A stretch of DNA of 58,428 nucleotides from Asterionella formosa (GCA_002256025.1 NKIB01013397.1:1-58428), one strand, 5' to 3'. Positions 5,441 through 32,245 are shown, counted from the stretch's first letter. Made by a program: numbers and translations. The notes: a model not told the origin generated them from the sequence alone.

Positions 5441-8400
5441 TCATCGCTTCGCCCGAACAGGGACTTTTAGTGCATCAGCAGCAAGATCAACACAGTCTGA
5501 TTTTTGCACACGGAGACCATGTGTTCCGAGAATTGCATCAACTTCAGGAATGGCAGGAAGTTCCACCATAATATCATCACCTTCGACCTTGACAGGGAAG
5601 GTCAAAATCTTGAGCTCGTCATCGCCACCAATTTGTTCTCCACTAGAGAGACTAAACTGCTTTTTATGCAGAGGACAGGCAACCTTGGAAATACCCTCAG
5701 AATCTCCCATGATACCTTGCGAAAGAACAAATGCCTGCTTGTGGGGGCACATATTTTGAGTGCAGTACCACTCTCCACGAATGGCGTTGTTAAAAATAGC
5801 AAGCTGAGTATCACCATAGAGAATTGGAGTTCCAACATTTGGAACAAAGTCAGAAATTGTTCCGACTTGGACCCAAGACTTTTCGGAGTTGGCAAACACA
5901 TCAGTTTCAGGAGCTTTCCAGAGTGTCTGACCAGAACCATCCTTGGCCCAGTCTGCTGGACGCTTCTGTCCTCGAATGTCAACAAATTCGATCATATCTT
6001 CCTTTTCAATATTCACATCCGTATTGGCAAATTGCTTGAATTTGGCGCGGAGCTCTGGGTTATTGACAACCTCTGCCCATTCATCGTGGTATGAGTCAAC
6101 CAGCTTCTGCATGCGAGCATCAAGTTCATCATTAATTCCAAGAGAGTCTTCCATGATGACCTCCTTCAAATGCTCGATTGGCCCACCTCCATTCTTTCCA
6201 CTGGGGAGCTTTGCTTGCCAAGGGGCAGTTCGCTCAAGCTTATCAGCAGTGAGAATGTAGTACATGAGGTAGCGGTCAAGGTACTTGAGAACAGTGTCTT
6301 CGTCAATATCTGTGGCGAGGAGCTCGGCATGGACTGGGTTGGCACCACCGTTACCACCAACGTAGAGGTTGTAACCATTCTCAGTTGCAATCATTCCAAA
6401 GTCTTTTCCAACGGCTTCAGCACACTCGCGGACACACCCAGATACTCCACCCTTCAGCTTGTGCGGAGAGCGAACACCCTTATAACGGTTCTCGACACGG
6501 ACTGCAAAGGACACGGAATCCTGGACTCCATATCGGCACCAAGTTGATCCAACGCAAGATTTGACAGTACGAAGAGCCTTTCCGTAGGCATGTCCAGATT
6601 CAAACCCAGCCTTGCCAAGCTCCTCCCAAATATCAGGCAACTGATACTTGGCAGCACCAAAGAGATCGACACGCTGAGCTCCGGTTACCTTGGTGTAAAG
6701 GTTGTACTTTTTAGCAACCTCACCCATTGCGATTAGCTGATCGGGACTTAATTCTCCACCAGGAACACGAGGAACGACAGAGTAGGATCCACCCCTTTGC
6801 ATGTTGGCCATGGCACGATCGTTGGTGTCCTGTAGTTGGTCACGACCACCTTCAAGGATGATTCCATTGTTGAGAGATGCTAAAATAGACCCAACCGCAG
6901 GCTTGCAAATCTCGCAACCATCTCCTTGACCATGTTTATGCAAAATCTTTTCAAACGAGTCCACACTAGATGGATCAGCATCTGTTCGGACCTTGGCCAT
7001 TAGTTCAGGCCGAGACATGTGAAAGTGTTCGCACATGTTGTTGGAGAGCTTTCCTCCCATGGAAATCAATGTCTCAGCAAGGATAGACTTGACTTGAGGT
7101 TCGCATCCGCCGCATCCAGTTCCGGCTTTGCTGCACTTCTTGACTGCCCCCAAGGTGGCTCCGTCGACACCAAGTTGCATAATTGTATCTACAATGGCAC
7201 CTCGGGATACATCATTGCACGAGCAAATCTGAGCAGCAGCATCGGTTGAGACAGCTTCTTCTACGACTGCTGAGCCACGAGCCGAAGGAGGAGGAAGGAG
7301 CATGGCTGGGTTTGCAGTAAGGCCGGCATCGCTGCCTCCCACCGCCAGCTTGTGAAGAACAGAATAGTCAGACGCGTCTCCGACAAGGATGCCACCACGA
7401 AGTTTGGTTCCGGCCTTGTTGAAGATAAGTTTACGGTAAATGGAGTTGATGGGGTCGTTCCATACAAGTTCCGTCACGTCGGTGTCATCAGGTCCAGGTT
7501 GGTTGACACCGAATGATGCGACATCACAACCCAACAGCTTGAGTTTAGTGGAAAGGTCGGCACCTGTAAAGGCGTTTTCACCTTCGATACTGCCAATGAT
7601 ACCAAGGTCTTCAGCAGTACACTTGGCAGCAACATCAGCCATGGTGTAGCCAGGAGCAATCAACCCGTAGATAAAGTTCTTATAGAGGGCAATTTCTCCA
7701 ACGGCATAGACACCATCGGCTGATGTACGGAGTTGCTCGTCAACAATGACACCACCACGTTCGCCAAGGGCGATGCCGGCAACTCGGGCCAACTCGTCAC
7801 GAGGCTTAATGCCACAACTAACCACCACCATTTCCACAGGAAGGTCGTCCCATCCATTGCTAAATTTGAGTGCGGCCACAGGGGACATGCTTTCATTGTC
7901 GTCAGTACCATCTTGACCAACAAAGGCTTGAGTGCGGGCATCGCAATGCACTTTGAGGCCCAATTCTTCAATCTTCCCCACCAAGGCATTGTGTCCACCT
8001 TGGTCAATCTGTCTCATCATGAGAATAGGTGCAAACTCAATGATGTGCGATGTAATTCCCATATCCTTGACAGCCTTTGCCGCTTCAAGGCCTAAAAGAC
8101 CTCCTCCAATGACTGCGGCTGATTGAACATTGTTTGCCTTGGCGTAGTCCAACATGGCTTCGAGGTCTTCAATGGTGCGGTACACAAAGACTCCCGGTCG
8201 TTGTTTTCCTGGAACTGGAGGGACAAATGGGAACGATCCCGTGGCAAGTACAGCAACATCATAGGGTAATACTTTTCCAGATGCTCCAGTCACAGTCTTG
8301 GCCTCCGTGTCCATGGCAACGGCCTTGTCATTGAGTAGAATCTCCACATTGTTCTCATCGTACCATGCTGTTTTGCCCTCTGCATCAAACTCCGATGTCA

Positions 8401-8803
8401 TGGACAGGCTCGATGGATCCCGCGTTTCAAAGTAGGATGTAAGTCGAACTCGATTGTACGCCGCTCTTGGCTCTTCACAGAATGTACTAATTATGCATTC
8501 CTTTTTCGTGTCTAGCTTCAAGAGGTTCTCCATGAAACGTTGACCCACCATGCCATTTCCAATAACCACAACGCGCTTCTTCGCCTGCTCTGCAGCGTAC
8601 AGTCGCGACGCTGATCTTCGTGGGCCAGCTGTGGAGTGACGAATGGATGGGGCAAAAGCGAATGCTGTTGCGGCCTCTGTTTGTAGGAGGAGGAGGAGGA
8701 GGAGGACTGAAGCGCATACTCCTGAGGCGCCGACGAGACTGTTATTATTACTGGACGGTCTCGTTGTTGCTGTTGTAGTTGCTGGTGCAGTGGTTGACAA
8801 CAT
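5441..8803 (-). CDS. nirB: NAD(P)H-dependent siroheme nitrite reductase, NirB fused to a Rieske NirD domain, with a bipartite plastid-type presequence
   Basis: FAD motif VVVIGNGMVG, NAD motif IGGGLLGLEAA, BFD-like CSCNDV/GTGCGGC, siroheme motifs KSCVGSTWCRYG and SGCVRECAE, Rieske CPH...VACPLH. First ATG is 8803; the ORF-track start at 8866 is GTG. Confidence 0.96.
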   Translation of the reverse strand: MLSTTAPATTTATTRPSSNNNSLVGASGVCASVLLLLLLLQTEAATAFAFAPSIRHSTAGPRRSASRLYAAEQAKKRVVVIGNGMVGQRFMENLLKLDTKKECIISTFCEEPRAAYNRVRLTSYFETRDPSSLSMTSEFDAEGKTAWYDENNVEILLNDKAVAMDTEAKTVTGASGKVLPYDVAVLATGSFPFVPPVPGKQRPGVFVYRTIEDLEAMLDYAKANNVQSAAVIGGGLLGLEAAKAVKDMGITSHIIEFAPILMMRQIDQGGHNALVGKIEELGLKVHCDARTQAFVGQDGTDDNESMSPVAALKFSNGWDDLPVEMVVVSCGIKPRDELARVAGIALGERGGVIVDEQLRTSADGVYAVGEIALYKNFIYGLIAPGYTMADVAAKCTAEDLGIIGSIEGENAFTGADLSTKLKLLGCDVASFGVNQPGPDDTDVTELVWNDPINSIYRKLIFNKAGTKLRGGILVGDASDYSVLHKLAVGGSDAGLTANPAMLLPPPSARGSAVVEEAVSTDAAAQICSCNDVSRGAIVDTIMQLGVDGATLGAVKKCSKAGTGCGGCEPQVKSILAETLISMGGKLSNNMCEHFHMSRPELMAKVRTDADPSSVDSFEKILHKHGQGDGCEICKPAVGSILASLNNGIILEGGRDQLQDTNDRAMANMQRGGSYSVVPRVPGGELSPDQLIAMGEVAKKYNLYTKVTGAQRVDLFGAAKYQLPDIWEELGKAGFESGHAYGKALRTVKSCVGSTWCRYGVQDSVSFAVRVENRYKGVRSPHKLKGGVSGCVRECAEAVGKDFGMIATENGYNLYVGGNGGANPVHAELLATDIDEDTVLKYLDRYLMYYILTADKLERTAPWQAKLPSGKNGGGPIEHLKEVIMEDSLGINDELDARMQKLVDSYHDEWAEVVNNPELRAKFKQFANTDVNIEKEDMIEFVDIRGQKRPADWAKDGSGQTLWKAPETDVFANSEKSWVQVGTISDFVPNVGTPILYGDTQLAIFNNAIRGEWYCTQNMCPHKQAFVLSQGIMGDSEGISKVACPLHKKQFSLSSGEQIGGDDELKILTFPVKVEGDDIMVELPAIPEVDAILGTHGLRVQKSDCVDLAADALKVPVRAKR

Positions 8804-9143
8804 GATGATGATGAAGTGACTGACTTTGGTCAGTTTTTTTTTCGTGGCTTTCGTTTGGGTCTTCACAATGAGTTTCTTGTGTACAATTTTGTGAGCGACT
8901 ATTTGCTTGATATGTTACTGATATGATATGCCTACTCCTAAAACGTAACCCGCATCCTCAGCTTTTGTTGATGATTATAGCTGTAATAGAGCTACATAAT
9001 TCTTCTTCTTCCCTTGCCTCTGGAAGATCCGATACCTTTCCTTCCTACTAATACCGGTAAAACAACCCAAAATGTGCAGCTGTTCGCACAGTCCGCTCCA
9101 ATTCCTGCCGGTATTTTTGTCATCCATCACGTTGTGACTATTG

Positions 9144-9991: not shown

Positions 9992-10409
9992 CCTCTTTTG
10001 CCCTTTCTTTCTTACTACCGATCGTCACCATTACTGCTTAAACTAACATTTTAATCTGGGGTAAAGATAGCTAAATCTTTAGTTTCAGCAAAGTTACCGC
10101 ACCTTGCTGGTACCAGGTCCTGACACTCCTGTCTTACTTATTATATTCTATGTACACTCAGTACCCCAAGTGGAGCTTGTTGTATTTGAAAGGAGCTTGA
10201 CACCACTTTTGCGAACCTTATTACATACCAGTATTTACTGGTAGTACATACGGTGAATGAGGTACTCCTGTTTTGATGTCAATAAAATTGGGTCGAAACA
10301 TGTGATTAGGTATTAGTATTGGAACCGTATTGTTACCGGCAGTCTATTTGTTCTTTCTTGTACATCACATCTACTATATTCGCTAGATTAAAATGATACT
10401 TGTCTCATC

Positions 10410-12233
10410 ATGATGGATGATGACACTGCTCCTCAAGAGGACGTGGACAATACAACTACCATGACGGAGGAAGGTTCCACAATCATGACTACAGGTAGTC
10501 CACCGCGAACAGATTCCAAGCACAATCACAACAAAATCGGAACCACGTCGAAGCGCCAACGAAACCAAACGATTCCGACTTTGTTACATGCCAATACCGA
10601 TGCTGCAGCACGACACGATAAGAAGAATATTCCACAACTATATCTTCGACATGCAGCAGCAACAACAGCAGCAGCCACATCGTCGGATTCTTCATCCAAA
10701 CAGCTCATTTCCAAACTCAAGATTCTCTACAAGTACAAAGTACTTCCTATAGAAACGAAGAACCATTTGTATCACTTTTGTTTACCAACCTCGGGACCTA
10801 TTCTAGATGCAGAATTGGATGCCAGGCCAATGGTACTACTCCTTGGACCGTACTCGACGGGAAAGACTACATTTATACGGTACTTGCTTGGCGGCGATTT
10901 TCCCGGGGTTCATATCGGACCAGAACCCACCACGGATAAATTTATGGCGCTCGTACATGGTAATGATGACGAAGAAGGGGATGACGAAGACGACGAGGAC
11001 AAGGATTACTTTCGAAGCACTACAAACTGCGTCAAAGAACTGGAAGGAAAGATTGTTAAAGGTAACACATTGACTGTAACTCCGGAATTACCCTTTAGCT
11101 CTCTCGCGACATTCGGGTCTGCCTTTCTCAACCACTTTCATGGATCCATATGTCCATCCCCTCTGCTTCGCACAATGACACTCATTGATACACCTGGAAT
11201 ATTGTCAGGAGAAAAACAGCGTGTTTCACGAGACTATGACTTCGCCGCTGCGGCCAAGTGGTTTGCCGACCGGAGTGATTTGATTCTTTTGCTAGTCGAT
11301 GCCCACAAGTTGGATTTTAGTGATGAACTGAAAGAAGTCATTGCAACGATTCGGCCGCACAATGATGATAAGATTAGATGCATTCTCAACAAGGCTGATG
11401 GAGTCAGCAAAGATCAGCTTGTACGAGTGTATGGAAGTCTCATGTGGTCCCTTGGAAGATTATTCCACTCTCCTGAAGTGGTTCGGGTGTTTACAGGGAG
11501 TTTCTGGGAACGTCCATTAGAGCATCAAGACTTTCAAACTATGTTTGAGGCAGATGAATGGTTTTTAATGAATGAGTTGATGAACCTCCCTTCTGTATCC
11601 GCGGAGCGCAAGGTGAATGCCATGGTACAACGAATTCGAATAATCAAGGTTCACGTCTGTATCCTTGGATATCTGCGCTCACAAATGCCTCGCTGGTACG
11701 GCAAAAAAAAGGCTCGTGGACGTCTCTTGGAAGCCTTGGACGGCGTATTTACTCATGTCCAACACCACTATTCCTTGCCGGTTGGTGATTTTCCAAACGT
11801 TGATCGCTTCCGAGAATGTTTAGAGAATTTTGACGACTTTACTGTCTTTCCAAACATTGATCACAATGCATTGCGACAATTAGATGACTTGATTGGAAAA
11901 GATATTCCTGCTATAATGAAGGGATCTGGTGGAGTTAGTGATTCTAAATCGACACTGACCCGAAGTAGACGTCGAATATTCACGGGAGCAAAGTCAACTG
12001 TGAAGGACCACGATTTTTCACCAACAGTACACGAAGGGACAACTCCAATGAAATCAATGGACGACGCTCCATCACATTCTAATGCTTTAGCATCAATGGG
12101 GGGAGGAAATTTTTTCTTTCGAATGTTTCGTGGTCTTTTCATTGCGACAGTCACAGCTACAATTGTCTCCTTTGGTTTGATGCATATTCTCCTTGCATCA
12201 AGGTCACAAAGTCGTGCCATGGCCGAACTCTAG
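10410..12233 (+). CDS. EHD-family dynamin-like ATPase with no recognisable EH domain and a C-terminal hydrophobic segment
   Basis: EHD N-terminal LKILYKYKVLPIE, P-loop GPYSTGKT, IGPEPTTDKF, DTPGILSGEKQR, LNKAD, and LVRVYGSLMWSLG. Confidence 0.88.
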   Translation: MMDDDTAPQEDVDNTTTMTEEGSTIMTTGSPPRTDSKHNHNKIGTTSKRQRNQTIPTLLHANTDAAARHDKKNIPQLYLRHAAATTAAATSSDSSSKQLISKLKILYKYKVLPIETKNHLYHFCLPTSGPILDAELDARPMVLLLGPYSTGKTTFIRYLLGGDFPGVHIGPEPTTDKFMALVHGNDDEEGDDEDDEDKDYFRSTTNCVKELEGKIVKGNTLTVTPELPFSSLATFGSAFLNHFHGSICPSPLLRTMTLIDTPGILSGEKQRVSRDYDFAAAAKWFADRSDLILLLVDAHKLDFSDELKEVIATIRPHNDDKIRCILNKADGVSKDQLVRVYGSLMWSLGRLFHSPEVVRVFTGSFWERPLEHQDFQTMFEADEWFLMNELMNLPSVSAERKVNAMVQRIRIIKVHVCILGYLRSQMPRWYGKKKARGRLLEALDGVFTHVQHHYSLPVGDFPNVDRFRECLENFDDFTVFPNIDHNALRQLDDLIGKDIPAIMKGSGGVSDSKSTLTRSRRRIFTGAKSTVKDHDFSPTVHEGTTPMKSMDDAPSHSNALASMGGGNFFFRMFRGLFIATVTATIVSFGLMHILLASRSQSRAMAEL

Positions 12234-12874: not shown

Positions 12875-15800
12875 CTACGTAAATCTTGAGGCGCAAGATA
12901 CTTGAGCAGTTTCCTGTTCCTCGAATTTGCGCGCCTCTATGAGTTCCGATTTATTCTTCAAGTATTGACCTCTTGCCTGCACGACAAAAGACCCAAGAAG
13001 GAGTGAAAAGGAACCAACAAGTATCAAAACTGTAGTTGCTGCCGACGCTTGAATGCGAAAACATTTTGTATTAGTCTGCTCAACTAAACCAATATAGGAA
13101 AGGGCATCAAAAAGTGAACCCAGTATATTGCAATAATTGTGAATCACATAGGCGGTCAAGGCGCCAAGTTGCCAAATGGCAATCACAAAAGAAGTAATGT
13201 ACACTTCCATGAATTTCCAAGCTCGAAGTCGATGGAAATTATCACAAGTTGATTCCAACGACTCCATCGAGCCATCGTCATGTCGATTTTTTGCAGATTT
13301 ACGTAGCCTCAGCCATTCACGGATCTTCCAGTATGCTTGCGTGGCAGGAAATGCCGCTGAAACGAAAATTGCAATGAAGAGACATATGCCAAGACCAACA
13401 TAGTCCCATTTGCTGTTCAAGACAAATCTCGCATTGAGGAGGATAAGTATGATCAACTGAAAGACATTATATTCGCTGACAGCTTCTTCATATGTTCTCC
13501 CTGAATCGAGGGCCAGATTAAGGAGGCTGTTGACTTCTAGTGAGATGGCAGGAGCTAAAATGATCCCGATAATGAGCAAGATCAATGCTGCAATTCCAGC
13601 CAAGATCACTCCAATTGTGCCTGCAACAAACCGCCGTCGTTTGAGAACAACTCGAAAGCTTTTTCGGGACGAGGCCCCAATTGAAGTTATGCTATCGTTT
13701 GGATGTTGGTCCCCATAATAAACCTCTACTTGCCTCGGAATGCTTATCTCATCATGAAACGATTCTTTAATCCAACTGACAGCCTTGTCCAAATCTTCAG
13801 GGTTGAATGTGATGACTTCTTCGGCTCGCTCGATTTTACTAGTTTCGTCAATTGCATCGTCGCCAGTCTTTTCTTCTTCGTAGACTTCAGAATCGCTGAG
13901 AGTCAAAGTAGTAGGGAATGGCAAATCGTTTGCATTGTCGTATGGAATGGGATATATGTTTGCAACATCCTTGAGTTTCCTTAGATTGTACTCTTTCAAT
14001 CCCATTGACACAATTTTTTTGTGGTAGTCAAGAAAGAAACGTGAGCTTACTCGATTAAGGCGCTGGGCGATCAGGATGCTGTAGAACGCCGCGAACGGCA
14101 CACATATAATCTTTACATTGTACAGATCAGCGTTGGTTTGAAGCTGGTCACTAGGCCCACCGATGTATATAAGCACTGCAGAAACAGCTACCGACATCAT
14201 GAATATATCAACAATACTAAGTTTCGTCAGCACATCCATCCAGAGAAAGATAGTCCCTCGGCGCGATACGGATATCCGCTTGGGCGGAAGAAACCATAGA
14301 ACCAATGCTAAAGTGAGTTTGATGTACGGCCAGAGGCCAGTGAAGATGATCACAAGTACTGCCATTTCTCTCCCGCCATTGTTGAATGCCTTAATCATAT
14401 TATCAAAAAATGAAAATTCCAGAAAACGTTCAATATAGACTCTGTCAAAGGAGGAAATAGTGTGTGAGCATGGCTGCCTTTCCGTCTACACTGCTTATTA
14501 GACAAATTGGCTAACTCTGTACTCACGCTTCTCCGGCAATTTGCCCTTGAACACTAACATATGCTAGCAACCCTAGGTGTCCACCAAGATAAAGGCCACA
14601 GTTGAACAAGATGACAACGGGAACCATCAATCGAATCGTGCGCGGAATGCATTGACACTCAAACATTGCAACAGTGTGCTCGTTGAGATACGCTGCTTCT
14701 CGTTGCTCCGCCTGCTCTCTTTTACGTATCATGGCGGTGTCGTCTTTCGACAATGATTCGGTCCACTTGCGTTCCCGCTCCTTGAGAATCCTTCGAATGA
14801 GAATTGCTGCAATGAAGATCAATGCCGCAATAACCAAATTCGCTATAGAGAATGGGGACAACTTTGACGAGCGATCGAGCGGAACAAATCCAAGATATGT
14901 CGCCGGGCTGAACAACCATTTCCCAATTTGAGCATTAGGATCATACATCTCATTATGCGGGCATTGTGTAGCAGCATCGTCGAGAACTCGACGGACAGCG
15001 TCCTTAAGGAAATCGCTGCCAATTAATAGCTTGACTGTATTCAATGTATTGTTTACGAAGGAGCTCGCGTCGCCTTCGCTGTCTCCAGGCGAGTATAATT
15101 CGTCGATGAGAGTATCGAACCTTGGACTTGAACAAGAAACACACGAAATGTTTAGATGAACCAATCGAGCTGTGACGCCGTACTGAAGTAAGTCATCACC
15201 GGACACGAGACTCATTGCGTCAGTTGAAAGCGACGATAGCCAACAATGGACATTCATTGCATCTTTGAGAGGAAAGGAATAAAATTGCCGCTGCGAAAGT
15301 GCAAGATAAATGCTGAAAAAAACAACAGCTGAATTGATTTCCAATGCAATATTTACTTCATTTTCGATTTCTACCCCCTCTGTAAAGCAGTTGGGAAATA
15401 TGAGAAAAGTGCAAAACAACGCACTGTAAAACACTAGTTGAGCTGTGAAATAACACTTACTGCCATCAGAAATTGCAACCAGCAATTTCGCGGTCATCCG
15501 GATTGGTCGTGATCCAACACCAAGCGCCACTGTATTGTTAAGAGTACTTGCCTCTTCCGATAATGGCTGAAGTAGCATCATGGGTTCGCCGATACTGTCA
15601 AGATTTTCGAAGCGAGCGTCGCTTATCCTGAACTTCAGTTTGCCATTGAATCCACCGACAATGACACTTACGTTGGTATTGATAACCATGCCATCATATG
15701 ACAGAGTGCCGCTTGCGTTTGATTGTTCCACTGTCCATGGTCGAATGATCATGCCATTGATAGTAGATTGATTCGTTGCATCGACCGCAGATAATTTTTC

Positions 15801-18800
15801 TTGTATCGCACTGAATAGCATTCGGAAGGTGTTCCCATACGGAGAGTCTCCGCTTCCACCGAATCGCTTCGCTAGTGCCTCGGAAAGAAAAAGGTCTCGA
15901 AAATCTATCGTGTCGGCTGTAACTGGTGCGGACACACAATACTCACCCGCTCGTTCCCGGTAGTGCATGAGGAAAGCATTGAAAACTTCCCTGATTGTTA
16001 TGTCACAAATCTTTGGAATTGCATTCGCCAAATCTGTTCGAAATGAATCGAAAAGAATTCTTCCAGATGATGCAACCTTTTCTGCTAGGTGTTTCGGCAG
16101 GAACCCTTCAATTTTCGGATCTCCAATGGCGCCCACAGAAACTAACAATTGAGAAATGGAGAAGTCATGCAATTTGGACAAGAAACAAGATAGAAGCTGA
16201 TCAATGCTCAACAGCGATTGCAGCTCGATTTCTCCCAGCTGAACCAAATCTACAGCAACAAGAGTAGACATATTTACAGCAATGTTAGCCATTCCAATGG
16301 AGATGGACGCTTTATCGAAACGCGCCCTGTGGCTTGACTTGATTTTCAAGGTGATATTAAAGTCAAGTCGGTCGAATTCGATTTCATGTCGGAATGTTTG
16401 GGCACCAATGGTCTTCAGCAAATCTATTTTCGAAATAGTGTCCAGTCCACTGACGCTGATGGAGGCGATAGAAAATGAAGTGCCAGCTACATCAAAGCCA
16501 GTATTGTCAAGCTCCATCACCAGTAGGCCGTCCAAGTTAAGGACGCTGTCCCTTAGTAACTTATTAGCTCGAAGAGTTAGCTCACCATCAACCGTCTCGT
16601 TGAGATTAATTCTGGCTTCTTCCAAAGCTTGTTCGGCCCAGCTACCAATGGTTTCATTGAGATTGAACCAGTCTAGAATGCGCATAGTATCCGACATTTG
16701 AAGTGATGCCTGTCCGGACAGAGGATTTGTTGGTACGGCCTGTCGCAACAAGTGGCTTTGTGCCGTCGAAATTAAAGCTATTTCCGCAGCGAAAAGACTT
16801 AGTGCTAAGCCTGATGCAATAGACTCCCTCGAGAGAGTCGGAAATTCTGGCACTGTAAAATTAGAGATTGCGCTTTTGTCGTAGTCTGGACTATGTGGGC
16901 ATAACGTTTTGGATTCCCGAATCAAAAGAGGAATTTTTAGCTCTTCCCAATAACGCTGTGCCACTTCCTCAATGAGCTGTTCCAGGGAATCTTCGAATAT
17001 TTTCATAATTCCAGCTTCTTCGACAGCGTTGATAATACCGGGTAAAGCGCTCCCTCCTGGACTTGTACAGGAAACACAAGTTGCGTTTACCTTCAAATTG
17101 GTAAAGGAAATATTCAAGCCAGATAACGCTAAGGCAATGCCATATTCCGGGTTTACGAGGTTGCCTCCTTCGTCGAAAGCAGGGACCGGGAAAGTGGCCA
17201 ACCAACAGTGAATATCTCGCAGGTCTTGCAATGGAAATTGTAGTAGGTTCTTTGTAAGAATCGATGCATTGAAATTTGCATCAACGCTTGCCGACGTGAA
17301 GGAAAGTGAGATTTCAACGTCGTTCGTCATACTTAGCGGTGAATTGTCGCCAAAGACATGAAACAATACTCGTGTTCCAAGTTGTATCGGGCGAGATTGA
17401 ACTGGTCCAACAGTTAGTTTATTCATAAGGGAAATTGCATCCGTTGGGCTCATAATTACCAGAGGAGATTGGAGAGTGTCAAGGTTTTCCACGGAGGCAT
17501 TGAAAACATTGAATTCAATGGTTTTGACCAAATTTGCAAATTCGCTGGCGACCATCTCTCTCTGGAATTTGAAAATTTCTGTTGAAATAAGCAATTCATT
17601 CGACTTTCCCGATTTTGATTCAGTAAACGATCGAATAATGGAGTTCAACTTGGGTTCACCATTCACATCGTTTGCGATGACCCTTTCCTCAAAAGCGTCA
17701 TAAAGCATGGAAGTGACGTTTCCGTATGGTTGCTTTCCAGTTGTTCCAGCTGCTACAGCACCCACGGGATTCAATAGTAGATCGCGAAGGTCCACGTATT
17801 CCCCCACTTTCGACGAACCCACAGGGCAACCTGACGTATCCTTCAACACATAGTTTCGAATCGCTGTATTGAGATAATCCCGTACGGCAATCTGAACAAA
17901 TGCTGGGAGTGCCGCCAATGCCGTAGCCTCGTACATATCCAAGGCAGCCGTCACAGAACTGCTCACAACACGGTCAATTCCTGGAGACACAAAGCCCTCC
18001 AGTGTCGGTGGGACCAGATTTACGACATCAACGGACAGACTCGCAATGGAAAGGTCAACGATGGAAGACAAAATACATGGAAGTATATTCTCTGTCATCA
18101 TGAGTGATCCAAGATGAATAGACCCCAAAAGCTCTTGGTTTACGGCAAGGAAGAATGTAGCAATGGCTTCAATCTGTTCCAACCCAAACCGAATAATAAC
18201 GTGCTCGACCACGTTCGTATCTCCTGATGGATTCACAATATACGAATCACCCAATGTAGATGGTCGAATGTCAAAGGTAGCGTTCATTTCGAAGGTCAAG
18301 TAGTTCCATGAAATCTTGTTTTGTAATGTTTGGTTGCCTATATCTTCCAGTGGCTGGAACATGGAAATTGAATCCAACCCCAACAACTTCACACTATCCA
18401 ATGCAACACTAGTCTCTGTAAGCCGATCGTGTCTATAGTACAGTAGCCCGTCTGGAGCAAAATCTGTCACATTCAGAAGCAAGGCTTGTTCTTTTAAGAG
18501 CCATTCTCTAAAGAGGACATTAATCCGCATATCATGGGTTCCATCATTGGGTGAAAGGACACTTGTAGACAAATAAGTGACAGTTTCATTCAATCCCCAT
18601 TTAAAGATGCTGTCATCATGCCAATTCAAAAGTGGCTGGTCGATTTCGGGCGATTTATTCCGTTCCATATCTAGTGGTTCAATTACATAATCTGCTGGGT
18701 ATTGTGCCAACGTCGTGGACGCTTTGGTCAAGGCATCCACTAAATCCGTCGTACTGACCCGACTGAGCTTGTCACATAACAGACCTTTAGCTTGATTCTC

Positions 18801-19328
18801 GATGACTCTCGACATGAATGACTCCACAGGAGCAGCACCCAAAATTGCACTGGACACAGACAAGTCATTGATATTGACAGTAGCTGAACAAGTGTCCACT
18901 TGCGATAGTGTCGGTGGCGAGTAGGAATAGTCTTGCGATGTGAAACTGGTAATCGTTTGGATGGTATTGTCATTTGATGTGATTTGGAACGTCCCGCTTC
19001 CTCGAAAGAGCCAAGTTCTGTATGAGTACGAACCATCGCATGTCATGCTCACTTGTAGGATATCCAATTGCACTTGTACAATCGTCGAGGAAATGACTTG
19101 ATCTACCAAAACAATGTCTCCAATCACAAAGTCCCTACATTGAATATTGGTCAATGTCATGTCAAGAATGAGTCCATCTCTTCCGGAAAAATCAGGAAGC
19201 TGAAAGACAGCTCCCTTTACTAAATCATTGAGTGCCGAGAAATCCCCAATGGCCAAATCCCGTTGAAGCGGAATTGCGGCAGCTTGGAACAAAAATAAGA
19301 CTAGGCCGATCCAGAAATGAGCGTGCAT
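12875..19328 (-). CDS. Giant (~2095 aa) membrane protein with signal peptide, BPI/TULIP-like N-terminus, duplicated ~650-aa module and C-terminal PqiA-like multi-TM region; exons 19328-15461, 15379-14527, 14441-12875
   Basis: GT-AG intron 14526-14442 joins the 1601-aa and 507-aa ORFs in frame. An in-frame 81-nt intron at 15460-15380 is likely. PqiA-like motifs are IFTGLWPYIKL, LTKLSIVDIF and WKFMEVYI. Confidence 0.8.
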
Positions 19329-22029: not shown

Positions 22030-23900
22030 ACTTTGAGGCTGTTAGAAATGACATTGATGGAACATCGATTGACACAGTATTTTACAGAATGATAACTGAA
22101 GCTGTGCGATTCCTTGATCAGTAAATGTTTCTGTAAACCCAAAAACCCCAGATTGGGCGGTTTAAAGAACAGTGGGCGTTTGGTCATTTTATTAAAGCTC
22201 ATATGTGCAAGCAAAGTAGGGAGGTAAGATCGATCTATTTGGTGATATTATTTCATGGTGAATGTCGATGCACATAGCGGATATTTCATAGCTGGTCGCA
22301 GCATATTTTGATATGATATCAGCACTTTGTGGCGGAGGAGTTTGGAGGCTGATATGTTCATACTCATGGTTTTACCTTGCTGAGTAAGTGTCCGAAGTTC
22401 GTCATTATTATTACCCTCTGGGGACAGCATTGCCCCTAACTCTCTTGGTCCTTCCCGTGCATCTTTCTGCGGTATTGTGGTGATGTGTTGGTAGTCATCT
22501 CCTGATTTTAACTGTATTTCGAAATTTATCTCCGATTAACTCTTTAATTTATATTCATCATTTTGAAATGGGTACGAAAAAGCACTTCTCCAATGCTAAA
22601 GCTCTCTCTGTTGTGTACAATAATTGCTCCCAAAATTGAGCTATGCTTTGCATTTCCTTTGTTATCATGTTCAAGTGAGCGTGATCCATGGATAAGATCA
22701 ATTCTGTGTCATCTACATAGGTTTCCGCTGCACAGTGTTGACACCGATTTTTCCGTGAACTACAATTTGTAGGAATTGCCCCTCGGTTTGCCAGCCCTGG
22801 CATTGCCGAAATTGGCAAGGGGTCTACTTGGTAAGGAAACCATTTCATATACTCTACAGATTTTTATAATTTATATCTAGAATTCACCTCGTTTTTGTTC
22901 GTCTCCTGAAAAGTGGACTCCGGCAATTCACCTTTCACCATGCCGATCGTCATCCATCATGACCGGTTTGAAGCGAAATCAGTTCAGCCATGACGCCAGT
23001 AGCGAATGGTTGTCTAACGGATGCGGTTGGTTTTTGGATTGCTTGTCTTCTCGAGAGATTCTTCATGTAGTCGCGTCGTCCATATTTTGTTGGACAAATG
23101 ATGATATCGATACATCTGATGTTGTTGGCAAGTTTTTGCTCCGGTCATGCATGTGATGATGCTTAACGGATATTCTACCAGTATTCATCTAGCCTATAAC
23201 GTACGTCGTACTGAAAACAACCATGCATGGTTTAAGCTAAAATGTAATGCTTACTTTGAGCACCTTATAATTTTCTCTCTGTAGACTCGGTATTATCTTT
23301 ACGAGACCTGAAATGTTGAATTGCTGCCTTTTCATCATTGTTAAATATTATGGCAAATTTTTTGAGAATTCTTATCCCATCGTAAGTTAGCCGCTTCATG
23401 AGAATTGCATGTGTCGATGAACTATTTGGCCTGGATCCCCATTGAAGAGAGTAAATAGTCTTCTGGTCCTCAGCTATATGAATTAGCCTCCTTCCAAAGA
23501 AAACTATTTGTAATACCATATTCAAGTCTGCCTCCAACAGTTGTGTCACTCGCAATTTGTCCAAATGTGATATCCCATTTGTCTTAATAGCCTGGTTCAA
23601 GTCCAAATGTGTGAGATCCACAGTCCCATTAAGCATGGACCTGGAAAAGTCATCAAATTGGAAAGGAGAAACAGATTGTCCAAACTTTCCTTCAACAAAG
23701 GGGATTCACTTGCTTGAGCAAAGTGTATGATGTTTCTTTGAATTAAGTGACTGAAAATCTCTTCTGAATCCGTAATGGTTTGAAACTCTAAGATCTCCCC
23801 TGTCTCATCACACATGGGTTTTTCTAACCGATTAAGGCTTATTCGAATTCCACCCTTTGCGCAAGACCTCCTTCAGCATCATCACCAGTATCATCAAGTT
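22030..23900 (-). mobile_element. Decayed non-LTR retrotransposon (Ambal-like LINE) reverse-transcriptase fragments, interrupted
   Basis: Fragments LDKLRVTQLLEADLN, QWGSRP, IFNNDEKAA, ETYVDD, ALALEKCFF and YQNMLRPAMKYPL in broken frames. Confidence 0.8.
22775..23322 (-). repeat. ~550-bp repeat, inverted copy of 28153-28712, inserted in the LINE
   Basis: Continuous reverse-complement similarity, e.g. AATTCACCTTTCACCATGCCGATCGTC versus GACGATCGGCATGGTGAAAGGTGAATT. Confidence 0.9.
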
Positions 23901-24634
23901 CCCATATAGCATCAGAATATGCCTTGGAGAAGATTAACAGGCAGTGGATATATGCATGCCAGCAAGCTATTTAACATCATCTCATGTATCAGCTAAAGCA
24001 GGTGTACATCCATAATAAATTCTATATCAGTACCAGGTAACTGGTACCTGGTACCGGTTCCAGTAATCCAGCTTTGTACACAGTTTTAGTTGAGCACTAC
24101 GAGTTGTACACTTGCGTTCATTACTGTCGAATAAGGTTGGACAAAAAATGTACAATCCTACCTGTAGTATAGTTTCCTAGTACCTGGTACGCCATGTACA
24201 TACGTTGCGAAAAGAGAGTTAAATATTGCATACAGCTATTTGAATTCCAGAAACTGCAGGAAAGATTGTCGTACCTGGTACCAGAAGGCAAATACATTAC
24301 TACAACAAATCCAAGAGACTTAAAAAGGAAACTGAAATACGTAGACTCGACTTCCTGACATGTACCGGTATTATAATGACATTTATGTCAAATCTATCAT
24401 ACATAGAATACATAATAGTATTGCATCATGACAACGCTGCCACGTCCCCCTACCGGTACCAGGTACGAGCATAAAGGTCCGAGACGAACAACACGACTAC
24501 AAATGCACGTGATCTCTAGAGAAAAGATGGTGTCTGATGCTACTCTATATGGAAATATTTCTGTTGTTCAACAAAACAAAAATTACTGATATTCTCAAAA
24601 ACTTGCCTTAGCATCAAAAAGGTTAATCACGAAA

Positions 24635-25426
24635 ATGACAAGTCCTAAATTGAGAGCTTCAGATCAATCCGATCATTCTCGATCGTTCGGGGACAGAATC
24701 TTGTCTCGCATCGACAGTCTTAATGAAGGCACTCAGTGGAAACCAAATCCGAAGAATAAAATCGAATATCTTGATTGGGAAAACTTAGAAGTTGACCGCC
24801 TCATTGGGAAAGGATCATTTTCGTTGGTTTACACGGTTCGCTTGAAGGAGGGACAACATTTTAATGATCGAGTCTATGCCCTGAAATCGCTTAGACCCCG
24901 GAAAGATGTTATCTCAGAAAAGTTTACCACTGGTATCGTTGATTTGATTCTAGAAGGCACCATTCTATCCAGTCTACACCACCCAAACATTATCAGGCTT
25001 TATGCTGTCAGGAAAGGCGATATTTCTGAAAGTTATGCACTTGAGGGAGGAGGTTGCTTTCTCGTATTGGATCTACTAGATTGTACCCTTGAATCAAGAC
25101 TTGACTCATGGAGAGATCACCGATGTTTCCCATTTCATAACATGACATCCTCCAAGGACATGATAAGTCGTATAGAGAAAGTGGGTCTCGGAATTGCAAG
25201 AGGAATGGAATATTTACATTCTCTAAACATCATTTTCAGAGACTTAAAACCGCATAATATTGGATTTGATGAAAATGATATCGTGAAAATCTTTGACTTC
25301 GGTCTCGCTCGGGAGTTTCACCATAACTTTCCCTCCGAGAATAGGAGAAATGAAGGTACAAGACAGATGACTGGAAATTGTGGAACTCCAAGGTAAGCAA
25401 GATAATAATCAATTTATACTCTTTGT

Positions 25427-25460
<34 letters not shown>

Positions 25461-26268
25461 CAAAGATTTTTATGATACAACTCAACTCTTCGTCGATTAA
25501 TTGCTTGATATCAGATATATGGCCCCTGAAGTTGCTGCAATGCAAGATTATGGGTTAGGGTGCGATGTTTACTCGTTTTCGATTACAATGTGGGAAATCT
25601 GCACTTTAAACAAGGCTTTTGAGGATGTGAAAGATAATCTTGTCTTCCTTGAAGAGGTCGTTAGGGGCAGCAAGAGGCCATCAATCAAGAGCATTTCTTT
25701 ATCAGCAATTGGAGCTCTTCTGGAACAAGGCTGGGATAAAGACCCGAGCAAACGACAATCATTTTCCTCTGTTGTCAAATCACTCGAAGAAGTGATCGAT
25801 ACTACCAGGGCGCCGGTTGCAAAACGGGTGCAACTGCGATCTTCTCCAAACCAGTCAAGTGCGACTACTTCCACCTTTCGAAATCGTTTGAGAGCTACTT
25901 TCAATCGAAGCAGTAGCACATCCGATACTCAGTTGAATGGAGCGTCAAACTTAAGCCGACTCAGCACAACTGATATCCAATGTAATGACGAGTCAGAGGG
26001 GCATTCTTGCCGTACCAGTGATCGACGAAGCTTTCGGATTCTTCGCTCTCGCAAGCAAGACCAAAGTTATATTCCTTCAGATGAATCAATCCCGCACGAA
26101 ATGACAAATGAAACTGCTGTGACAAGATTGATACGTCCTTTGATTCGCCGATTGAGCACCACTGACAATTTGAATAATGGCGAGTCAGAGATTTCTAACC
26201 TTGAGGGAAGGAGCGTTCGGAGTCTTGACTCCTACAAACAAAGGAGTCAGCTTTTGGATCTCAAATGA
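24635..26268 (+). CDS. TKL-like protein kinase, paralog 1; exons 24635-25392 and 25515-26268 (503 aa)
   Basis: [26 protein letters not shown], and GTPR|YMAPE joined by a 122-nt GT-AG intron. Confidence 0.92.
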
Positions 26269-27239
26269 ATCTCAGAATGAATACTCGGCGCGCAAGGCAC
26301 AAGGAACGCACCTCAGTATATGAATCAGGAGTCCCTGTCTTTCTTTCGCCGATTGAGCACAGCTGATATTTACTTGAACGAGTAACACAGATAGTAGGTC
26401 TTCTCGTAACCATGCGGGAGGGAGCGTGCCAAGCCTTGACTAGGCCACGACCAAGTGAGGCAACATGATTCTGCAAGGCAAATGTTAATTGTAAGAAAAT
26501 GGAGATCGCAGAACAAGTTCCTTGATTCTTCTACCCAATTTGTATTATTTGTTTTCATTTTTAACCTTTTAAATTTTGTTTTCATTTTTAACCGTTAAAT
26601 AATATTGCGTTTGCCTTTTACCTCCATTCTTGTTTTACTTTACTGTCCCTATTCTTTACAGACAAAGTCATTTATTTACTGTAACAGTCGCAGATAGTCT
26701 ACAATGAATCCAAATAGACCAGCCTGTTGCCTTTAAGTTTGTTTTTAAGTCCGTGGTGGTCTTAAAAGTCACCACCATGGTCGTTTGAAAGTCACTAGCT
26801 TTGTCGTCTTAATTTTTTTTCAGGGGATTAAATCAAGCAGTCATAAGAAAAACATAGGGATTCATTGACAAACATCATCAAAAAATTTGGTCAGAATAGC
26901 AAAATAAGTTTTAGGTTTAAGGTTGCGGCCCTCGGCTTAACCCTAGTTTGGAGAAAACGTCGCTAGGGTTCTAAAAATGGCATGGAACAGGGAGTTTGCT
27001 GCTATGAGTTCCCATCATTCGAGTATCCCTTTGAATATTTGAATTAAATAGGAGTCGGCGCCAGATAGGCAGAGTTCCATTTTAAACAAACAAAAATGAT
27101 ATTTAAACGTTTATATCTGAGTTGCTGCATGTAGACATAATTTTGTTCCACTCCATAACACATACCGGTATATAAATCAGGAGTATGCCTAAATGTATTC
27201 TAATGATATTTTTAATCCGTTTATACCCGCGTAACGGTG

Positions 27240-28152: not shown

Positions 28153-28712
28153 AATTCAACATTTCAGGTCTCGTAAAAATAATACCAAGTCTACAGAGAA
28201 AATATCATTAAGTGTTCGAAGTAAGCGTTAAAGCATAGCTTAAACCATGCATGGTTGTTTTTAGTACCTCGTACGTATGTAGACTAGATGACTGCCGGTA
28301 CCGGTAGAATATCCGTTAAGCATCATTACATAAATGACCGGAGCAAAACTTGCCACCAACATCAGCCAGATGTATCGATATCATCGTTCGTCCGACGAAA
28401 TATGGACGATGCGACCACCGGTACATGAATACCTCGAGAAGACAAGCAATCCAACAACCAACCGCATCCGTTAAACAACGAATCGCTACTGGCGTCATCG
28501 CGGAACTGACTTCGCTTCAAACCGGTCATGATGGACGACGATCGGCATGGTGAAAGGTGAATTGCCGGATTCCACTTTTCAGGAGACGAACGAAAACGAG
28601 GTGAATTCTAGATATAAATTATTAGAATCTGAATAGTATAAAAATTGGTTTCCTTAAGAAGATTCCTTGCCGATTTCGGCAATCACAGGGCTGGAATACC
28701 GAGGGGCAATTG
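28153..28712 (+). repeat. ~550-bp repeat, inverted copy of 22775-23322
   Basis: Reverse-complement similarity along its length. Confidence 0.9.
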
Positions 28713-30605
28713 GCGTCTGCTGTCTTGCCAAAATGCGAACATATGAAATATACAAAATATATTTTAATGATGGGCAATATCGGACCTTTGGCAATTTTCG
28801 AGGTGAAGATAAGAAATATTCAAAATATATTTTATATGCTGATGAGCAAAAGTAGGCTAAAATTGACATTTTTGCTAAATTTGTGGGCAGTAGGTAAGCG
28901 AATGGTACCCTTCTCGGCGGCTACTTGCCTTCTCGTATTCATGTGCACTCACAGGCAAGAGATCACCTCGGGCGTGTATTGCCTTCAGCAAAATATACCT
29001 ACGCAAGACTCTAAGTCTACGAGAACGTTTTTGCATGTACTAATTCTCTTCCAATTTATGGCGACTGTTAAAAAATCCGATCGGGTCGACTTTTTGGAAG
29101 AGGATTGCTCTACATCTACAAACACACCTTACTCGGTACCGAGATTTAAACAGACACTCACGACGCCCATTACACCCATAAGAGTCTAGCAAGGAGTAGC
29201 ACTCACTCATCCTTCTCCTCGACCTTCTCCCTCTCATTCTTCAACACCTGGCCTTACCATACACCCCAGCATGTCTTCCCATCTACCAAGAATCGTCAAC
29301 CTTGCTGGCTTGCCAATTCTCTCAAATGGGGGGGAATGCTGCTGGATCTAGTCTGCACAGATGCTCACAGCACCAACAGAAGTACCATAACATGGGTTTT
29401 TAATCTATTATTTTACTCTCCCAACAACCAAGGACTTCCTTTGCCAGCATGTACAAGAACCCTACACTATGATGAGAGGGAGGCTGTGTTCTTGGATATC
29501 TTTCTTCTTTTCATCAGCCACTTGTCACTGGAACACCGCAGATAGGGGAGATATGTCCCATGGCATCAGAATAGCAGAAAGGAGAGCTTATTGCATCACA
29601 GAAATCAGGCAAATGAATAGATGAGATACTTCTCCATATTTGTTCAAATTTCAGATTGATTCCACAGCAAACCTGGGAAATCTTGTGACAACCACCATAC
29701 ATTGATTAACAGCTTGATTGAAGGGGAGTAGCAGAGAAATATTACAATGTGCCCCAGGTAAGCAAAGTCATTCAATAGTGAACAGGCACAGTATGGTGGA
29801 AATATGTATGACCAACATGTATTTATGTTGAACAACCCATGCATGGATTTATACTGGGCAGCCAACAGCTACCTGGCTGGTATCTGGTACCTGGTACCAG
29901 AAAGCAGTAAAACCAACAGGGGATGAAATTAATCATGGCACACAATAGTAGAATATTATTTGGTAAATAGTTTCTCTGTGTCCGGCGGCATATGGTATCG
30001 TCGTGATTGTCTCAACAGGTGTTTTATATTTTGCTTGCTATCATGTACAGTTATATTGTTTGATTACCAGGTACCTTTATATACTGTAAACGGTCTGCAT
30101 GTTCGGACAAATATTCGCAATATTCGGACTTTCCCGGAACTCCCTGACATATTTACCGCATTTATGTCATCTCTAGACTACATACAGTATTGCACCTCGA
30201 CTTCCTGACATGTTTTATGACATATATGTCAAGTATAGACTACATGCAATATTGCATCATGTTAACAACTCTGCCACATCGCCCCTGTTTCCATCATGTG
30301 GTATCCGTCATTCAAATGTACCCAAACTGCTTCTAGATGCTATATACTATAAGGAAGCATCAACAGCTGCTACTTAAATAATTATCAGAACTCAAATCGA
30401 AGAACAACACGTATGTAAGCCACAAATATGTAAGGAGAAAGGAAGGAATTAAAAGTAATATCAAGCCTTTAATGTATTGCCGAATTAAAAAGGGCCTTGA
30501 CATTTTTATTAGAACCTGATAACTGTTAAATACCTGGTACCGTATTTCTGTTATTCAACAAAAAAACAGAAATTACTGATTTTCAAAAAAAGGTTAATCA
30601 CGAAA

Positions 30606-31400
30606 ATGACAAGTCCTAAATTGAGAGCGTCAGATCAATCCGTTCATTCTCGATCGGTCGGGGACAGAGTCTTGTCTCGCGTCGACAGTCTGAAGGAAGG
30701 CACTCCATGGAAACCAAATCCGAAGAATAAAATCGAATATCTTGATTGGGAAAACTTAGAAATTGACCGCCTCATTGGGAAAGGATCATTTTCGTTTATT
30801 TACAAGGTTTTGTTGAAGGAGGGACTACATTATAATGATCGAGTCTATGCCCTGAAATCGCTTAGACCCCGGAAAGATGTAAGCTCAGAAAATTGTACCA
30901 CTGGTATCGTTGATTTGATTCTAGAAGGCACCATTCTAGCCAGCCTACACCACCCAAACATTATCAGGCTTTATGCTGTCAGGAAAGGGGATAAATCTGA
31001 TAGTTCTGCATTTGAAGAGAAAGATCACTTTCTCGTATTGGATCTACTAGATTGTACCCTTGAATCAAGACTTGACTCATGGAGAGATCAACGAGGATGT
31101 TTCCCATTTCATAACATGACATCCTCCAAGGACATGATAAGTCGTATAGAGAAAGTGGGTCTCGGAATTGCAAGAGGAATGGAATATTTACATTCACTGA
31201 ACATCATTTTCAGAGACTTAAAACCGCATAATATTGGATTTGATGAAAATGATATCTTGAAAATCTTTGACTTCGGTCTCGCTCGGGAGTTTCACCATAA
31301 CTTTCCCTCCGAGAATAGGAGAAATGAAGGTACAAGACAGATGACTGGAAATTGTGGAACTCCAAGGTAAGCAAGATAATAATCAATTTATACTCTTTGT

Positions 31401-31434
<34 letters not shown>

Positions 31435-32245
31435 CAAAGATTTTTATGATACAACTCAACTCTTCGTCGATTAATTGCTTGATATCAGATATATGGCCCC
31501 TGAAGTTGCTGCAATGCAAGATTATGGGTTAGGGTGCGATGTTTACTCGTTTTCGATTACAATGTGGGAAATCTGCACTTTAAACAAGGCTTTTGAGGAT
31601 GTGAAAGATAATCTTGTCTTCCTTGAAGAGGTCGTTAGGGGCAGCAAGAGGCCATCAATCAAGAGCATTTCCTTGTCAGCGATTGGAGCTCTTCTGGAAC
31701 AAGGCTGGGATGAAGACCCGAGCAAACGACAATCATTTTCCTCTGTTGTCAAATCACTCGAAGAAGTGATCGATACTACCAGGGCGACGGTTGCCAAACG
31801 GGTGCAACTGCGATCTTCTCCAAACCAGTCAAGTGCGACTACTTCCACCTTTCGAAATCGTTTGAGAGCTACTTTCATTCGAAGCAGTGGCACATCCGAT
31901 ATTCAGTTGAATGGAGCGTCAAACTTAAACCGACTCAGCACAACTGATATTCAATGTAATGACGAGTCAGAGGAGAATTCTTGCTGTACCAGTGATCGAC
32001 GAAGCTTTCGGATTCTTCGCTCTCGCAAGCAAGACCAAAGTTATACTCCTTCAAATGAATCAATCCCGCACGAAATGACAAAAGGAACTACTGTGACAAG
32101 ATTGATACGTCCATTGATGCGCCGATTGAGCACCACCGACCATTTGTATAATGACGAGTCAGAGAGGTCTAACCGTGAGGAGGGAAAGAGCGTTCGGGGT
32201 CTTGACTCCAACAAACAAAGGAGTCAGCTTTTGGATCTCAAATGA
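30606..32245 (+). CDS. TKL-like protein kinase, paralog 2; exons 30606-31366 and 31489-32245 (505 aa)
   Basis: Same motifs and intron as paralog 1. Duplicated unit spans about 30196-32490 versus 24345-26510. Confidence 0.92.

What the first reader, a model, noticed from the sequence alone, without database searches (positions are those of the whole stretch)
12875..19328. Giant TULIP-like plus PqiA-like fusion: candidate single-chain lipid transport system
Seen: signal peptide, a beta-rich N-terminus (LPDFSG...LTNIQCRDFVIGDI...CDGSYSY..FRGSGTF), a long extracytoplasmic region and two C-terminal TM bundles with PqiA-like motifs. Known: BPI/LBP/CETP (TULIP) domains carry lipids, and bacterial PqiA/YebS(LetA) are membrane partners of MCE lipid tunnels. 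Inference: a eukaryotic fusion in which TULIP-like domains replace the MCE conduit, perhaps between complex-plastid or endomembrane bilayers.
Basis: inference. Interest (0 to 1): 0.7.

Follow-up and report, generated by a model that had tools for sequence, protein, structure and literature searches.

The report
Diatom five-barrel lipid transfer protein
This is one intact, spliced diatom gene for a 2,095-residue membrane protein that joins five predicted lipid-carrying barrels to a bacterial-type lipid transporter; the fusion class was recently published from malaria parasites, and what diatoms add is a barrel chain whose length varies from three to nine units and that likely passes lipids along to the membrane.

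Summary
Three exons (19328-15461, 15379-14527, 14441-12875, minus strand) are joined in RNA contigs into one 2,095-aa frame. It reads: signal peptide, RxL motif, BPI-like N domain, four ~300-aa repeat units, an anchor helix, and two PqiA/LetA four-helix modules. A confident model of one repeat pair (pLDDT 92) best matches TULIP proteins; the first membrane module best matches E. coli LetA (Z 13.1). The fusion is not new: TULIP+PqiA proteins were noted in 2017 and named TUPALs in a 2026 preprint, with one or two barrels. Not in the passages I read: (1) homologs carry 1, 2, 3 or 4 barrel pairs, and the number changes repeatedly on a tree; (2) the PqiA halves lie in the reverse of LetA's order; (3) an RxL motif is enriched (89 of 116), pointing to the late secretory route rather than the plastid; (4) an unexplained hydrophobic helix joins the pairs. 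A continuous tunnel, the cargo, the direction and the location are untested. The scan reported this family three times before on other DNA. Verdict: new variant of a known kind.

The parts
15461..19328 (-). Exon 1 (from the ATG)
   Evidence: Open frame; joint 15379/15461 in 3 of 4 RNA runs
15380..15460 (-). Intron 1, 81 nt, GT-AG, in frame and without a stop
   Evidence: Skipped in contigs of X1, X2, X4; ends
14527..15379 (-). Exon 2
   Evidence: table 8
14442..14526 (-). Intron 2, 85 nt, GT-AG
   Evidence: Skipped in 4 of 4 RNA runs
12875..14441 (-). Exon 3 to the stop codon
19275..19328 (-). Predicted signal peptide, residues 1-18
   Evidence: Hydropathy peak 1.8; inferred, no dedicated predictor
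19254..19262 (-). RxL motif (residues 23-25), likely pro-peptide processing site
   Evidence: RxL in the 24 residues around the N-domain start in 89 of 116 homologs; shuffled mean 21, max 35; motif described in PMC5525289
18684..19268 (-). BPI-like N domain, residues 21-215
   Evidence: Family profile vs human BPI E 1.4e-8; Atlas features: TULIP-clan clusters at 0.91 and 0.90, weak by the tool's own measure; not folded
17832..18653 (-). Repeat unit type 1, copy A (226-499), predicted TULIP fold
   Evidence: Model pLDDT 92; Takeout Z 8.4, carotene-binding protein 7.9, CETP 7.3
16884..17816 (-). Repeat unit type 2, copy A (505-815), TULIP-like, more diverged
   Evidence: Homologous to type 1 (hhalign 97%, E 3.5e-11); Der p 7 Z 5.1
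16761..16826 (-). Conserved hydrophobic, non-amphipathic helix between the pairs (835-856); role unexplained
   Evidence: 144 linkers, median hydropathy 1.8 vs 2.8 for the anchor helix; moment 0.12, central E/Q/H
15936..16721 (-). Repeat unit type 1, copy B (870-1131)
   Evidence: hhalign to copy A 100%, E 8.7e-50, 26% identity; not folded itself
14943..15926 (-). Repeat unit type 2, copy B (1135-1435; spans intron 1)
   Evidence: hhalign to copy A E 1.6e-68; top Foldseek rows of the model holding it are JHBP (E 1.2e-3) and Der f 7
14778..14867 (-). Anchor transmembrane helix (1461-1490), followed by a basic helix predicted to be cytosolic
   Evidence: Hydropathy 2.8; K+R 19.8% after it across 39 homologs
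14003..14660 (-). First PqiA/LetA module (1530-1720; spans intron 2), most like LetA's C-terminal half
   Evidence: VIA-align to LetA residues 258-418, Z 13.1, rmsd 3.5, 159 aligned; Pfam PF04403
14201..14227 (-). Degenerate LetA motif (1646-1654): Ser and Asp kept, Trp replaced by Leu
   Evidence: S1649 in 82 of 83, D1652 in 81 of 83; Leu in 18 of 18 rows of this protein's subclade, Trp in 45 of 46 other complete proteins
12953..13636 (-). Second PqiA/LetA module (1843-2070), most like LetA's N-terminal half
   Evidence: Pfam E 0.001, below cut-off; profile 29.9 bits vs LetA-N, 13.8 vs LetA-C; model confidence only 50-70 here

Best explanation
This spliced gene encodes one membrane protein with five predicted TULIP-type barrels joined to a PqiA/LetA-type membrane domain, and it likely moves lipids between a late-secretory membrane (vacuole/endosome, silica deposition vesicle or cell surface) and a lipid source on its lumenal side. 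Steps: (1, inferred from hydropathy) the signal peptide puts the 1,440-residue barrel chain in the lumen and nine helices cross the membrane; (2, inferred) the RxL site is clipped on the way out; (3, inferred from TULIP relatives and PfTUPA) the barrels take up glycerolipids or other hydrophobic molecules at the far end and hand them from barrel to barrel; (4, inferred from LetA) the last barrel passes them over the lumenal beta-strands to the PqiA pocket, where the conserved polar residues T1608, K1615, S1649 and D1652 guide head groups across the bilayer. I commit to uptake and recycling from lumen into membrane, as shown for PfTUPA. The number of barrel pairs would set reach or capacity.
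For: One transcript. Repeat pair folds confidently, pLDDT 92.3, pTM 0.81; the top 8 VIA-align rows and 11 top Foldseek rows shown are TULIP proteins. First membrane module: LetA is the top match, Z 12.3 against 9.1 for the next among 48,161 chains. Four of LetA's seven polar-network residues align: S321, K328, S364, D367 to T1608 (S/T 79 of 83), K1615 (81 of 83), S1649, D1652. The model has beta-strands on the loops after the first and third helix of that module, as in LetA. The fusion is conserved: 64 of 181 proteins examined run from N domain to second module. PfTUPA, the same domain pairing, faces the vacuole lumen and is needed to clear membranes there. Pair B has excess glycosylation sequons (258 vs 187 +/- 12 in 39 homologs), fitting a lumenal position.
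Against: TULIP Z-scores are middling (8.4 at best, about 5 for type-2 units, rmsd 5-7 A). LetA's K178 aligns to Gln and D181 is not conserved; T402 was not aligned. This protein's subclade is long-branched and has lost the motif's Trp. Pair A shows no sequon excess (ratio 1.04) and the N domain a deficit (0.68). The hydrophobic helix between pairs is unexplained and could break a straight chain. Location and direction rest on analogy only.
Confidence: 0.55

Rival explanations
1. Same machine, opposite direction: like bacterial LetAB it extracts lipids from the cytosolic leaflet and exports them along the barrels to an outer structure, such as the forming silica valve or the organic coat of the cell wall.
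For: The LetA paper's model is export from the inner membrane. RxL is typical of biosilica-associated proteins and is enriched here. Long arrays were named only in diatoms and Triparma among the named hits.
Against: The only tested eukaryotic member works from lumen to membrane. No energy-coupling part is visible. RxL marks a processing route, not a compartment.
Confidence: 0.22
2. The barrel array is a binding or sensing ectodomain (it holds hydrophobic ligands such as sterols, oxylipins or bacterial lipids, as BPI, LBP and Takeout do), and the diverged PqiA part in this subclade no longer transports.
For: Best structural matches are shuttle-type ligand carriers. Pair number changes often on the tree, as in surface proteins. 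The subclade is long-branched (1.36) with Trp to Leu in the motif.
Against: The polar Ser/Thr, Lys, Ser and Asp stay nearly invariant. No complete homolog examined lacks the PqiA part, though many are fragments and cannot say.
Confidence: 0.13
3. One reading: the chain bridges two membranes of the four-membrane plastid or an ER-plastid gap.
For: Diatoms must move lipids across closely spaced plastid membranes and the route is described as largely unexplored (PMC13235166). A signal peptide is the first half of the plastid-targeting signal (own knowledge).
Against: No room for a transit peptide and no aromatic residue at the likely cleavage site (sequence; the rule is recalled). TUPALs occur in lineages without plastids. 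RxL enrichment.
Confidence: 0.07

Closest known systems
TUPALs (TUPA-like proteins), N-terminal 2xBPI type; prototype PfTUPA (bioRxiv 10.64898/2026.09.11.750981)
   Same: TULIP/BPI-like domain and two four-helix PqiA halves on one chain, an extra anchor helix next to the barrel, N-terminal half resembling human BPI-N, barrels predicted on the lumenal side.
   Different: The sections read describe one or two BPI-like domains; here there are five, and 3 to 9 in homologs. PfTUPA has its barrel at the C-terminus. Diatoms are not named in the main text; figures and supplements were not seen.
E. coli LetA/LetB and PqiA/PqiB (PMC13017536; PDB 9n8w, 9n8x)
   Same: Four-helix module fold (Z 13.1), motif Ser and Asp, four of seven polar-network residues; a repeated lipid-conduit module whose copy number varies among relatives (6, 7 or 8 MCE rings).
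   Different: No zinc-ribbon domains; conduit is a fused TULIP chain, not a hexameric MCE tunnel; halves appear in reverse order; K178 and D181 not kept.
BPI / LBP / CETP, Takeout/JHBP, Der p 7 and SMP domains (TULIP superfamily)
   Same: Helix, long beta-meander, long helix in each unit; N domain matches BPI by sequence profile; one repeat pair aligns across both LBP domains (Z 7.3).
   Different: Units are larger (about 270-310 aa), match no Pfam TULIP model, and the two-domain alignments have high rmsd (9.9-16.7 A), so the pair's geometry is not BPI's.
PqiA-anchored CETP/BPI proteins of protists (Wong and Levine 2017, PMC5507252)
   Same: Extracellular CETP/BPI domain on a C-terminal PqiA domain, with the same suggested shared lipid ligand.
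   Different: The passage read mentions no long arrays and no diatoms.

Membership tests
TUPAL | PqiA domain made of two four-helix halves | tested here: met
   Pfam two stretches, 35.5 bits on the last exon but 23.3 on the whole protein against 23.8; first half LetA Z 13.1; second half by profile only
TUPAL | TULIP/BPI-like domain fused on the same chain | tested here: met
   Single spliced contig in 3 of 4 runs; BPI E 1.4e-8; fold matches
TUPAL | Barrel on the lumenal/extracellular side, same side as the PqiA beta-sheet | tested here: inconclusive
   Signal peptide, basic helix after the anchor and sequon excess in pair B support it; the hydrophobic linker helix leaves some doubt
TUPAL | Hydrophobic cavity in the barrel | not testable with these tools
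   Model coordinates are not returned
TUPAL | Lipid transfer activity | not testable with these tools
   Needs biochemistry or a knockout
Bacterial LetA/PqiA | GRWSM-x-D-x-F motif | tested here: inconclusive
   Ser, Asp and Phe kept, Trp to Leu in this protein; Trp in 60 of 83 first modules
Bacterial LetA/PqiA | Seven-residue polar network | tested here: inconclusive
   4 of 7 conserved, K178 aligns to Gln, D181 not kept, T402 not aligned
Bacterial LetA/PqiA | Two cytoplasmic zinc-ribbon (CXXC-Xn-CXXC) domains | tested here: not met
   The only CXXC sites are at 751 and 1369, in the ectodomain
Bacterial LetA/PqiA | MCE-domain partner (LetB/PqiB) | not tested
   No MCE hit among 14 window ORFs scanned; the genome was not searched for MCE
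TULIP superfamily | Tubular fold of long beta-meander wrapped round a long helix, for each unit | tested here: met
   Met for unit type 1 (Z 8.4); weaker for type 2 (Z about 5, JHBP E 1.2e-3) but tied to type 1 by homology; N domain by sequence only
Bridge-like lipid transfer proteins (VPS13/TamB repeating beta-groove) | Repeating beta-groove fold | tested here: inconclusive
   TULIP entries top the fold searches; the searches cannot exclude a family

The most novel reading that the evidence does not exclude
Diatoms have built a single-chain, length-tunable lipid bridge out of TULIP barrels: 3, 5, 7 or 9 barrels stack into one continuous conduit on a half-swapped LetA transporter, a eukaryotic counterpart of bacterial MCE tunnels of variable ring number and a kind of bridge distinct from VPS13-type grooves, with the inter-pair hydrophobic helix acting as a lost anchor, plug or second membrane contact, possibly serving the silica deposition vesicle.
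Probability: 0.25. Interest if true: 0.72.

Novelty: new variant of a known kind. Interest (0 to 1): 0.42.

Why it matters
Non-vesicular lipid traffic in diatoms is described as largely unexplored (PMC13235166), and diatoms matter for carbon fixation and oil production. This family gives a concrete, knock-out-ready candidate. TULIP domains are known as single or double shuttles, or as bridges assembled from separate proteins; a natural series with 3 to 9 barrels on one chain makes it directly testable whether they can form a long continuous tunnel and whether length matches a gap. If the barrels are only beads on a string, the gene is an enlarged TUPAL and of modest interest.

Tried and rejected
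Two separate genes: rejected by spliced contigs. Intron 1 as coding sequence (it is open and mimics a hydrophobic helix): rejected, it is skipped in 3 of 4 runs; the fourth has no contig across it. Single-sequence searches of the PDB found nothing useful; whole-protein self-BLAST missed the repeat, a split comparison found it (E 2e-58). Sequence homology between the N domain and the repeat units was not detected (hhalign under 1%). No VPS13/TamB-type entry ranked high in the fold searches; TamA rows at Z 4.4-4.5 are in the noise. A complex prediction of the linker helix with its two neighbouring units returned no verdict, score 0.00, alignment not used; it is evidence neither way. No dileucine or tyrosine sorting motif was found in four predicted cytosolic stretches. 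The half-swap test on this protein alone with two-sequence bacterial profiles was at noise level and leaned the other way (6.2 vs 3.3 bits). The careful tree did not finish; the quick tree was used. The third homolog search covered only 3,727-5,000 aa and gave one protein, so no wider taxon list was obtained. The preprint's supplements could not be read. Literature searches with no relevant diatom paper: PqiA+diatom 0, paraquat-inducible protein A+diatom 1 unrelated, paraquat-inducible+Phaeodactylum 0, bridge-like/TULIP/tandem/diatom 21 with 12 listed, one relevant review, TUPAL+lipid transfer 4, only the preprint relevant.

Full report
Gene. The minus strand holds two long open frames, 19376-14523 and 14485-12875. 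Two GT-AG introns join them into a 6,288-nt frame of 2,095 aa from the ATG at 19328. I laid 4 of the 22 runs listed: all 4 skip 14442-14526, 3 skip 15380-15460, and in X1, X2 and X4 one contig covers the entire coding region. Protein P0003, 2,095 aa, differs at 6 residues. Named homologs are from the diatoms Cylindrotheca, Nitzschia, Seminavis and Pseudictyota and from Triparma; RNA holders are mostly freshwater samples. The organism is therefore taken to be a diatom.

Ectodomain. Pfam finds nothing in residues 1-1460. Profiles of the family hit human BPI over the N domain (E 4.6e-6 with 25 sequences; 1.4e-8 with 58), with mouse LBP at E 0.005. The Atlas feature search gave TULIP-clan clusters at 0.91 and 0.90, below its recognition mark, so only a lead. 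After the N domain come four units: 226-499, 505-815, 870-1131, 1135-1435. First and third are homologous (E 8.7e-50), as are second and fourth (E 1.6e-68), and the two types are related (92-98%; 97%). An AlphaFold2 model of residues 222-830 from 60 sequences has pLDDT 92.3 and pTM 0.81, each unit showing helix, long beta-meander, long helix. Foldseek's best rows are CETP, BPI, LBP, Der f 7 and JHBP (E 5e-7 to 1e-4, with low TM-scores). Among 48,161 chains the top 8 VIA-align rows are all TULIP proteins (Takeout Z 8.4, rmsd 6.1, 191 aligned). These Z values are middling by the tool's own note, and type-2 units reach only about 5 (Der p 7, 129 aligned). In the second model, where the last type-2 unit is the only barrel, Foldseek's first four rows are JHBP and mite allergens (best E 1.2e-3). 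The N domain and third unit were not folded.

Membrane part. After an anchor helix (1461-1490) and a basic helix come two four-helix modules. The first matches LetA best: Z 12.3 against 9.1 for the next and 13.1 to chain 9n8w residues 258-418. The second is modelled with low confidence (pLDDT about 50-70) and is assigned by sequence (Pfam E 0.001). With LetA and PqiA taken from E. coli K-12, LetA's S321, K328, S364 and D367 align to T1608, K1615, S1649 and D1652, conserved in 79 (S/T), 81, 82 and 81 of 83 first modules; K178 aligns to a conserved Gln (72 of 76) and D181 is lost. There are no zinc ribbons, as the LetA paper says of eukaryotic relatives. The halves appear swapped: the first module's profile scores 26.2 and 32.8 bits on the C halves of LetA and PqiA against 14.1 and 5.0 on the N halves; the second scores 29.9 on LetA-N against 13.8 on LetA-C, but 22.2 on PqiA-C against 18.9 on PqiA-N. 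Sequence by sequence, 69 of 83 first modules prefer the C half and 58 of 76 second modules the N half; this protein alone gave noise. I rate the swap likely, not shown.

Family. A search of 50%-identity representatives with residues 19-1218 found 745 proteins at E 0.001 or better, 150 listed. Of 181 proteins annotated with profiles built from 25 of them, 64 run from N domain to second module: 20 have one barrel pair, 39 two, 5 three; the other 117 are partial or lack a recognised N domain. P0195 (3,784 aa) is complete with four pairs. On a quick tree of the membrane modules (68 rows) the label needs 17 changes, and well-supported branches force at least 7 each for one and for two pairs. Most sequences come from metagenome or transcript assemblies, so some counts may be assembly artefacts. 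This protein lies in a long-branched subclade of 18 rows, all with Leu for the motif's Trp. The genome has 5 PqiA-like loci including this one: a one-pair paralog (L006), a shorter divergent fusion (L007) and two in which no barrel unit was detected.

Targeting and topology. RxL lies just before the N domain in 89 of 116 homologs with a usable N-terminus, against a shuffled mean of 21 (max 35) and 15 in random ectodomain windows; the homologs are related, so these are not independent counts. Passages of PMC5525289 call RxL typical of biosilica-associated proteins and report its proteolytic removal. There is no room for a plastid transit peptide. One feature is unexplained: every link between pairs holds an 18-residue hydrophobic helix without an amphipathic face and with one central Glu/Gln/His (144 linkers). 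It follows the same Cys-Pro motif as the anchor helix, so it may be a relic of a duplicated anchor. If it crossed the membrane it would invert everything behind it in even-pair proteins, which the basic helix after the anchor and the sequon excess in pair B argue against. It is clearly less hydrophobic than the anchor but as hydrophobic as several PqiA helices, so the matter is open.

What is known. Wong and Levine 2017 (PMC5507252; passages) noted protist CETP/BPI proteins anchored by a C-terminal PqiA domain. The LetA paper (PMC13017536; passages) notes eukaryotic LetA-like proteins fused to a lipid-conduit domain. The preprint 10.64898/2026.09.11.750981 (abstract, passages, sections 6 and 11 in full and part 1 of 2 of section 10) names the class TUPAL, lists one or two BPI-like domains, and shows by knockout that PfTUPA clears membranes from the digestive vacuole. 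Its main text has no 'diatom', 'permut' or 'swap'; figures and supplements were not seen and might include diatom arrays. PMC13235166 was seen as passages. Three earlier scan notes, read only after this analysis, describe the same family on other DNA; they are not independent evidence.

Verdict. A real, expressed member of the TUPAL class by the features that could be tested, and a distinct variant: a barrel array of variable length on a probably half-swapped LetA domain. Shown: gene structure, repeats, family architecture, PqiA homology. Predicted: TULIP folds, topology. Inferred: lipid transfer, direction, location, any continuous tunnel. If each barrel is 5-7 nm long (recalled from BPI and SMP structures), five in line would span roughly 25-35 nm. 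Interest 0.42.

Noticed in passing
window 10392-12233 (+): EHD-type dynamin-like GTPase (Dynamin_N + DUF5600), an endocytic-recycling protein, converges on this gene; two RNA contigs run past 12300 towards it, probably overlapping 3' ends.
   Followed up: no
G000:C13927, C13594, C14603, C1113 (L006-L009): Four further PqiA-like loci in this genome: one-pair fusion (contig-limited), a 1,336-aa frame with N domain plus a weak unit, and two without detected barrels.
   Followed up: partly
window 16884-17816 and 18600-19274 (Atlas queries): A cluster of 73 bacterial 575-aa hypothetical proteins, mostly Actinomycetota, scored 0.92 and 0.89 by features against a repeat unit and the N domain; possible bacterial TULIP-like family, lead only.
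   Followed up: no
window 24616-26511 and 30587-32489: Tandem duplicate protein-kinase genes, 94.7% identical over 1.9 kb; also an 86% inverted repeat at 22774-23322 / 28153-28711.
   Followed up: no
window 5441-8914 (-): NAD(P)H nitrite reductase with fused Rieske domain (NirB/NirD type), ordinary for diatoms.
   Followed up: no
window 42276-45332 (-): 1,018-aa open frame with only a weak Ig-like Pfam hit (E 6e-4).
   Followed up: no
proteins P0041, P0042 (Triparma): Their distal ectodomain differs from the diatom pattern and their linker lacks the hydrophobic helix; P0042 carries a WW domain.
   Followed up: partly
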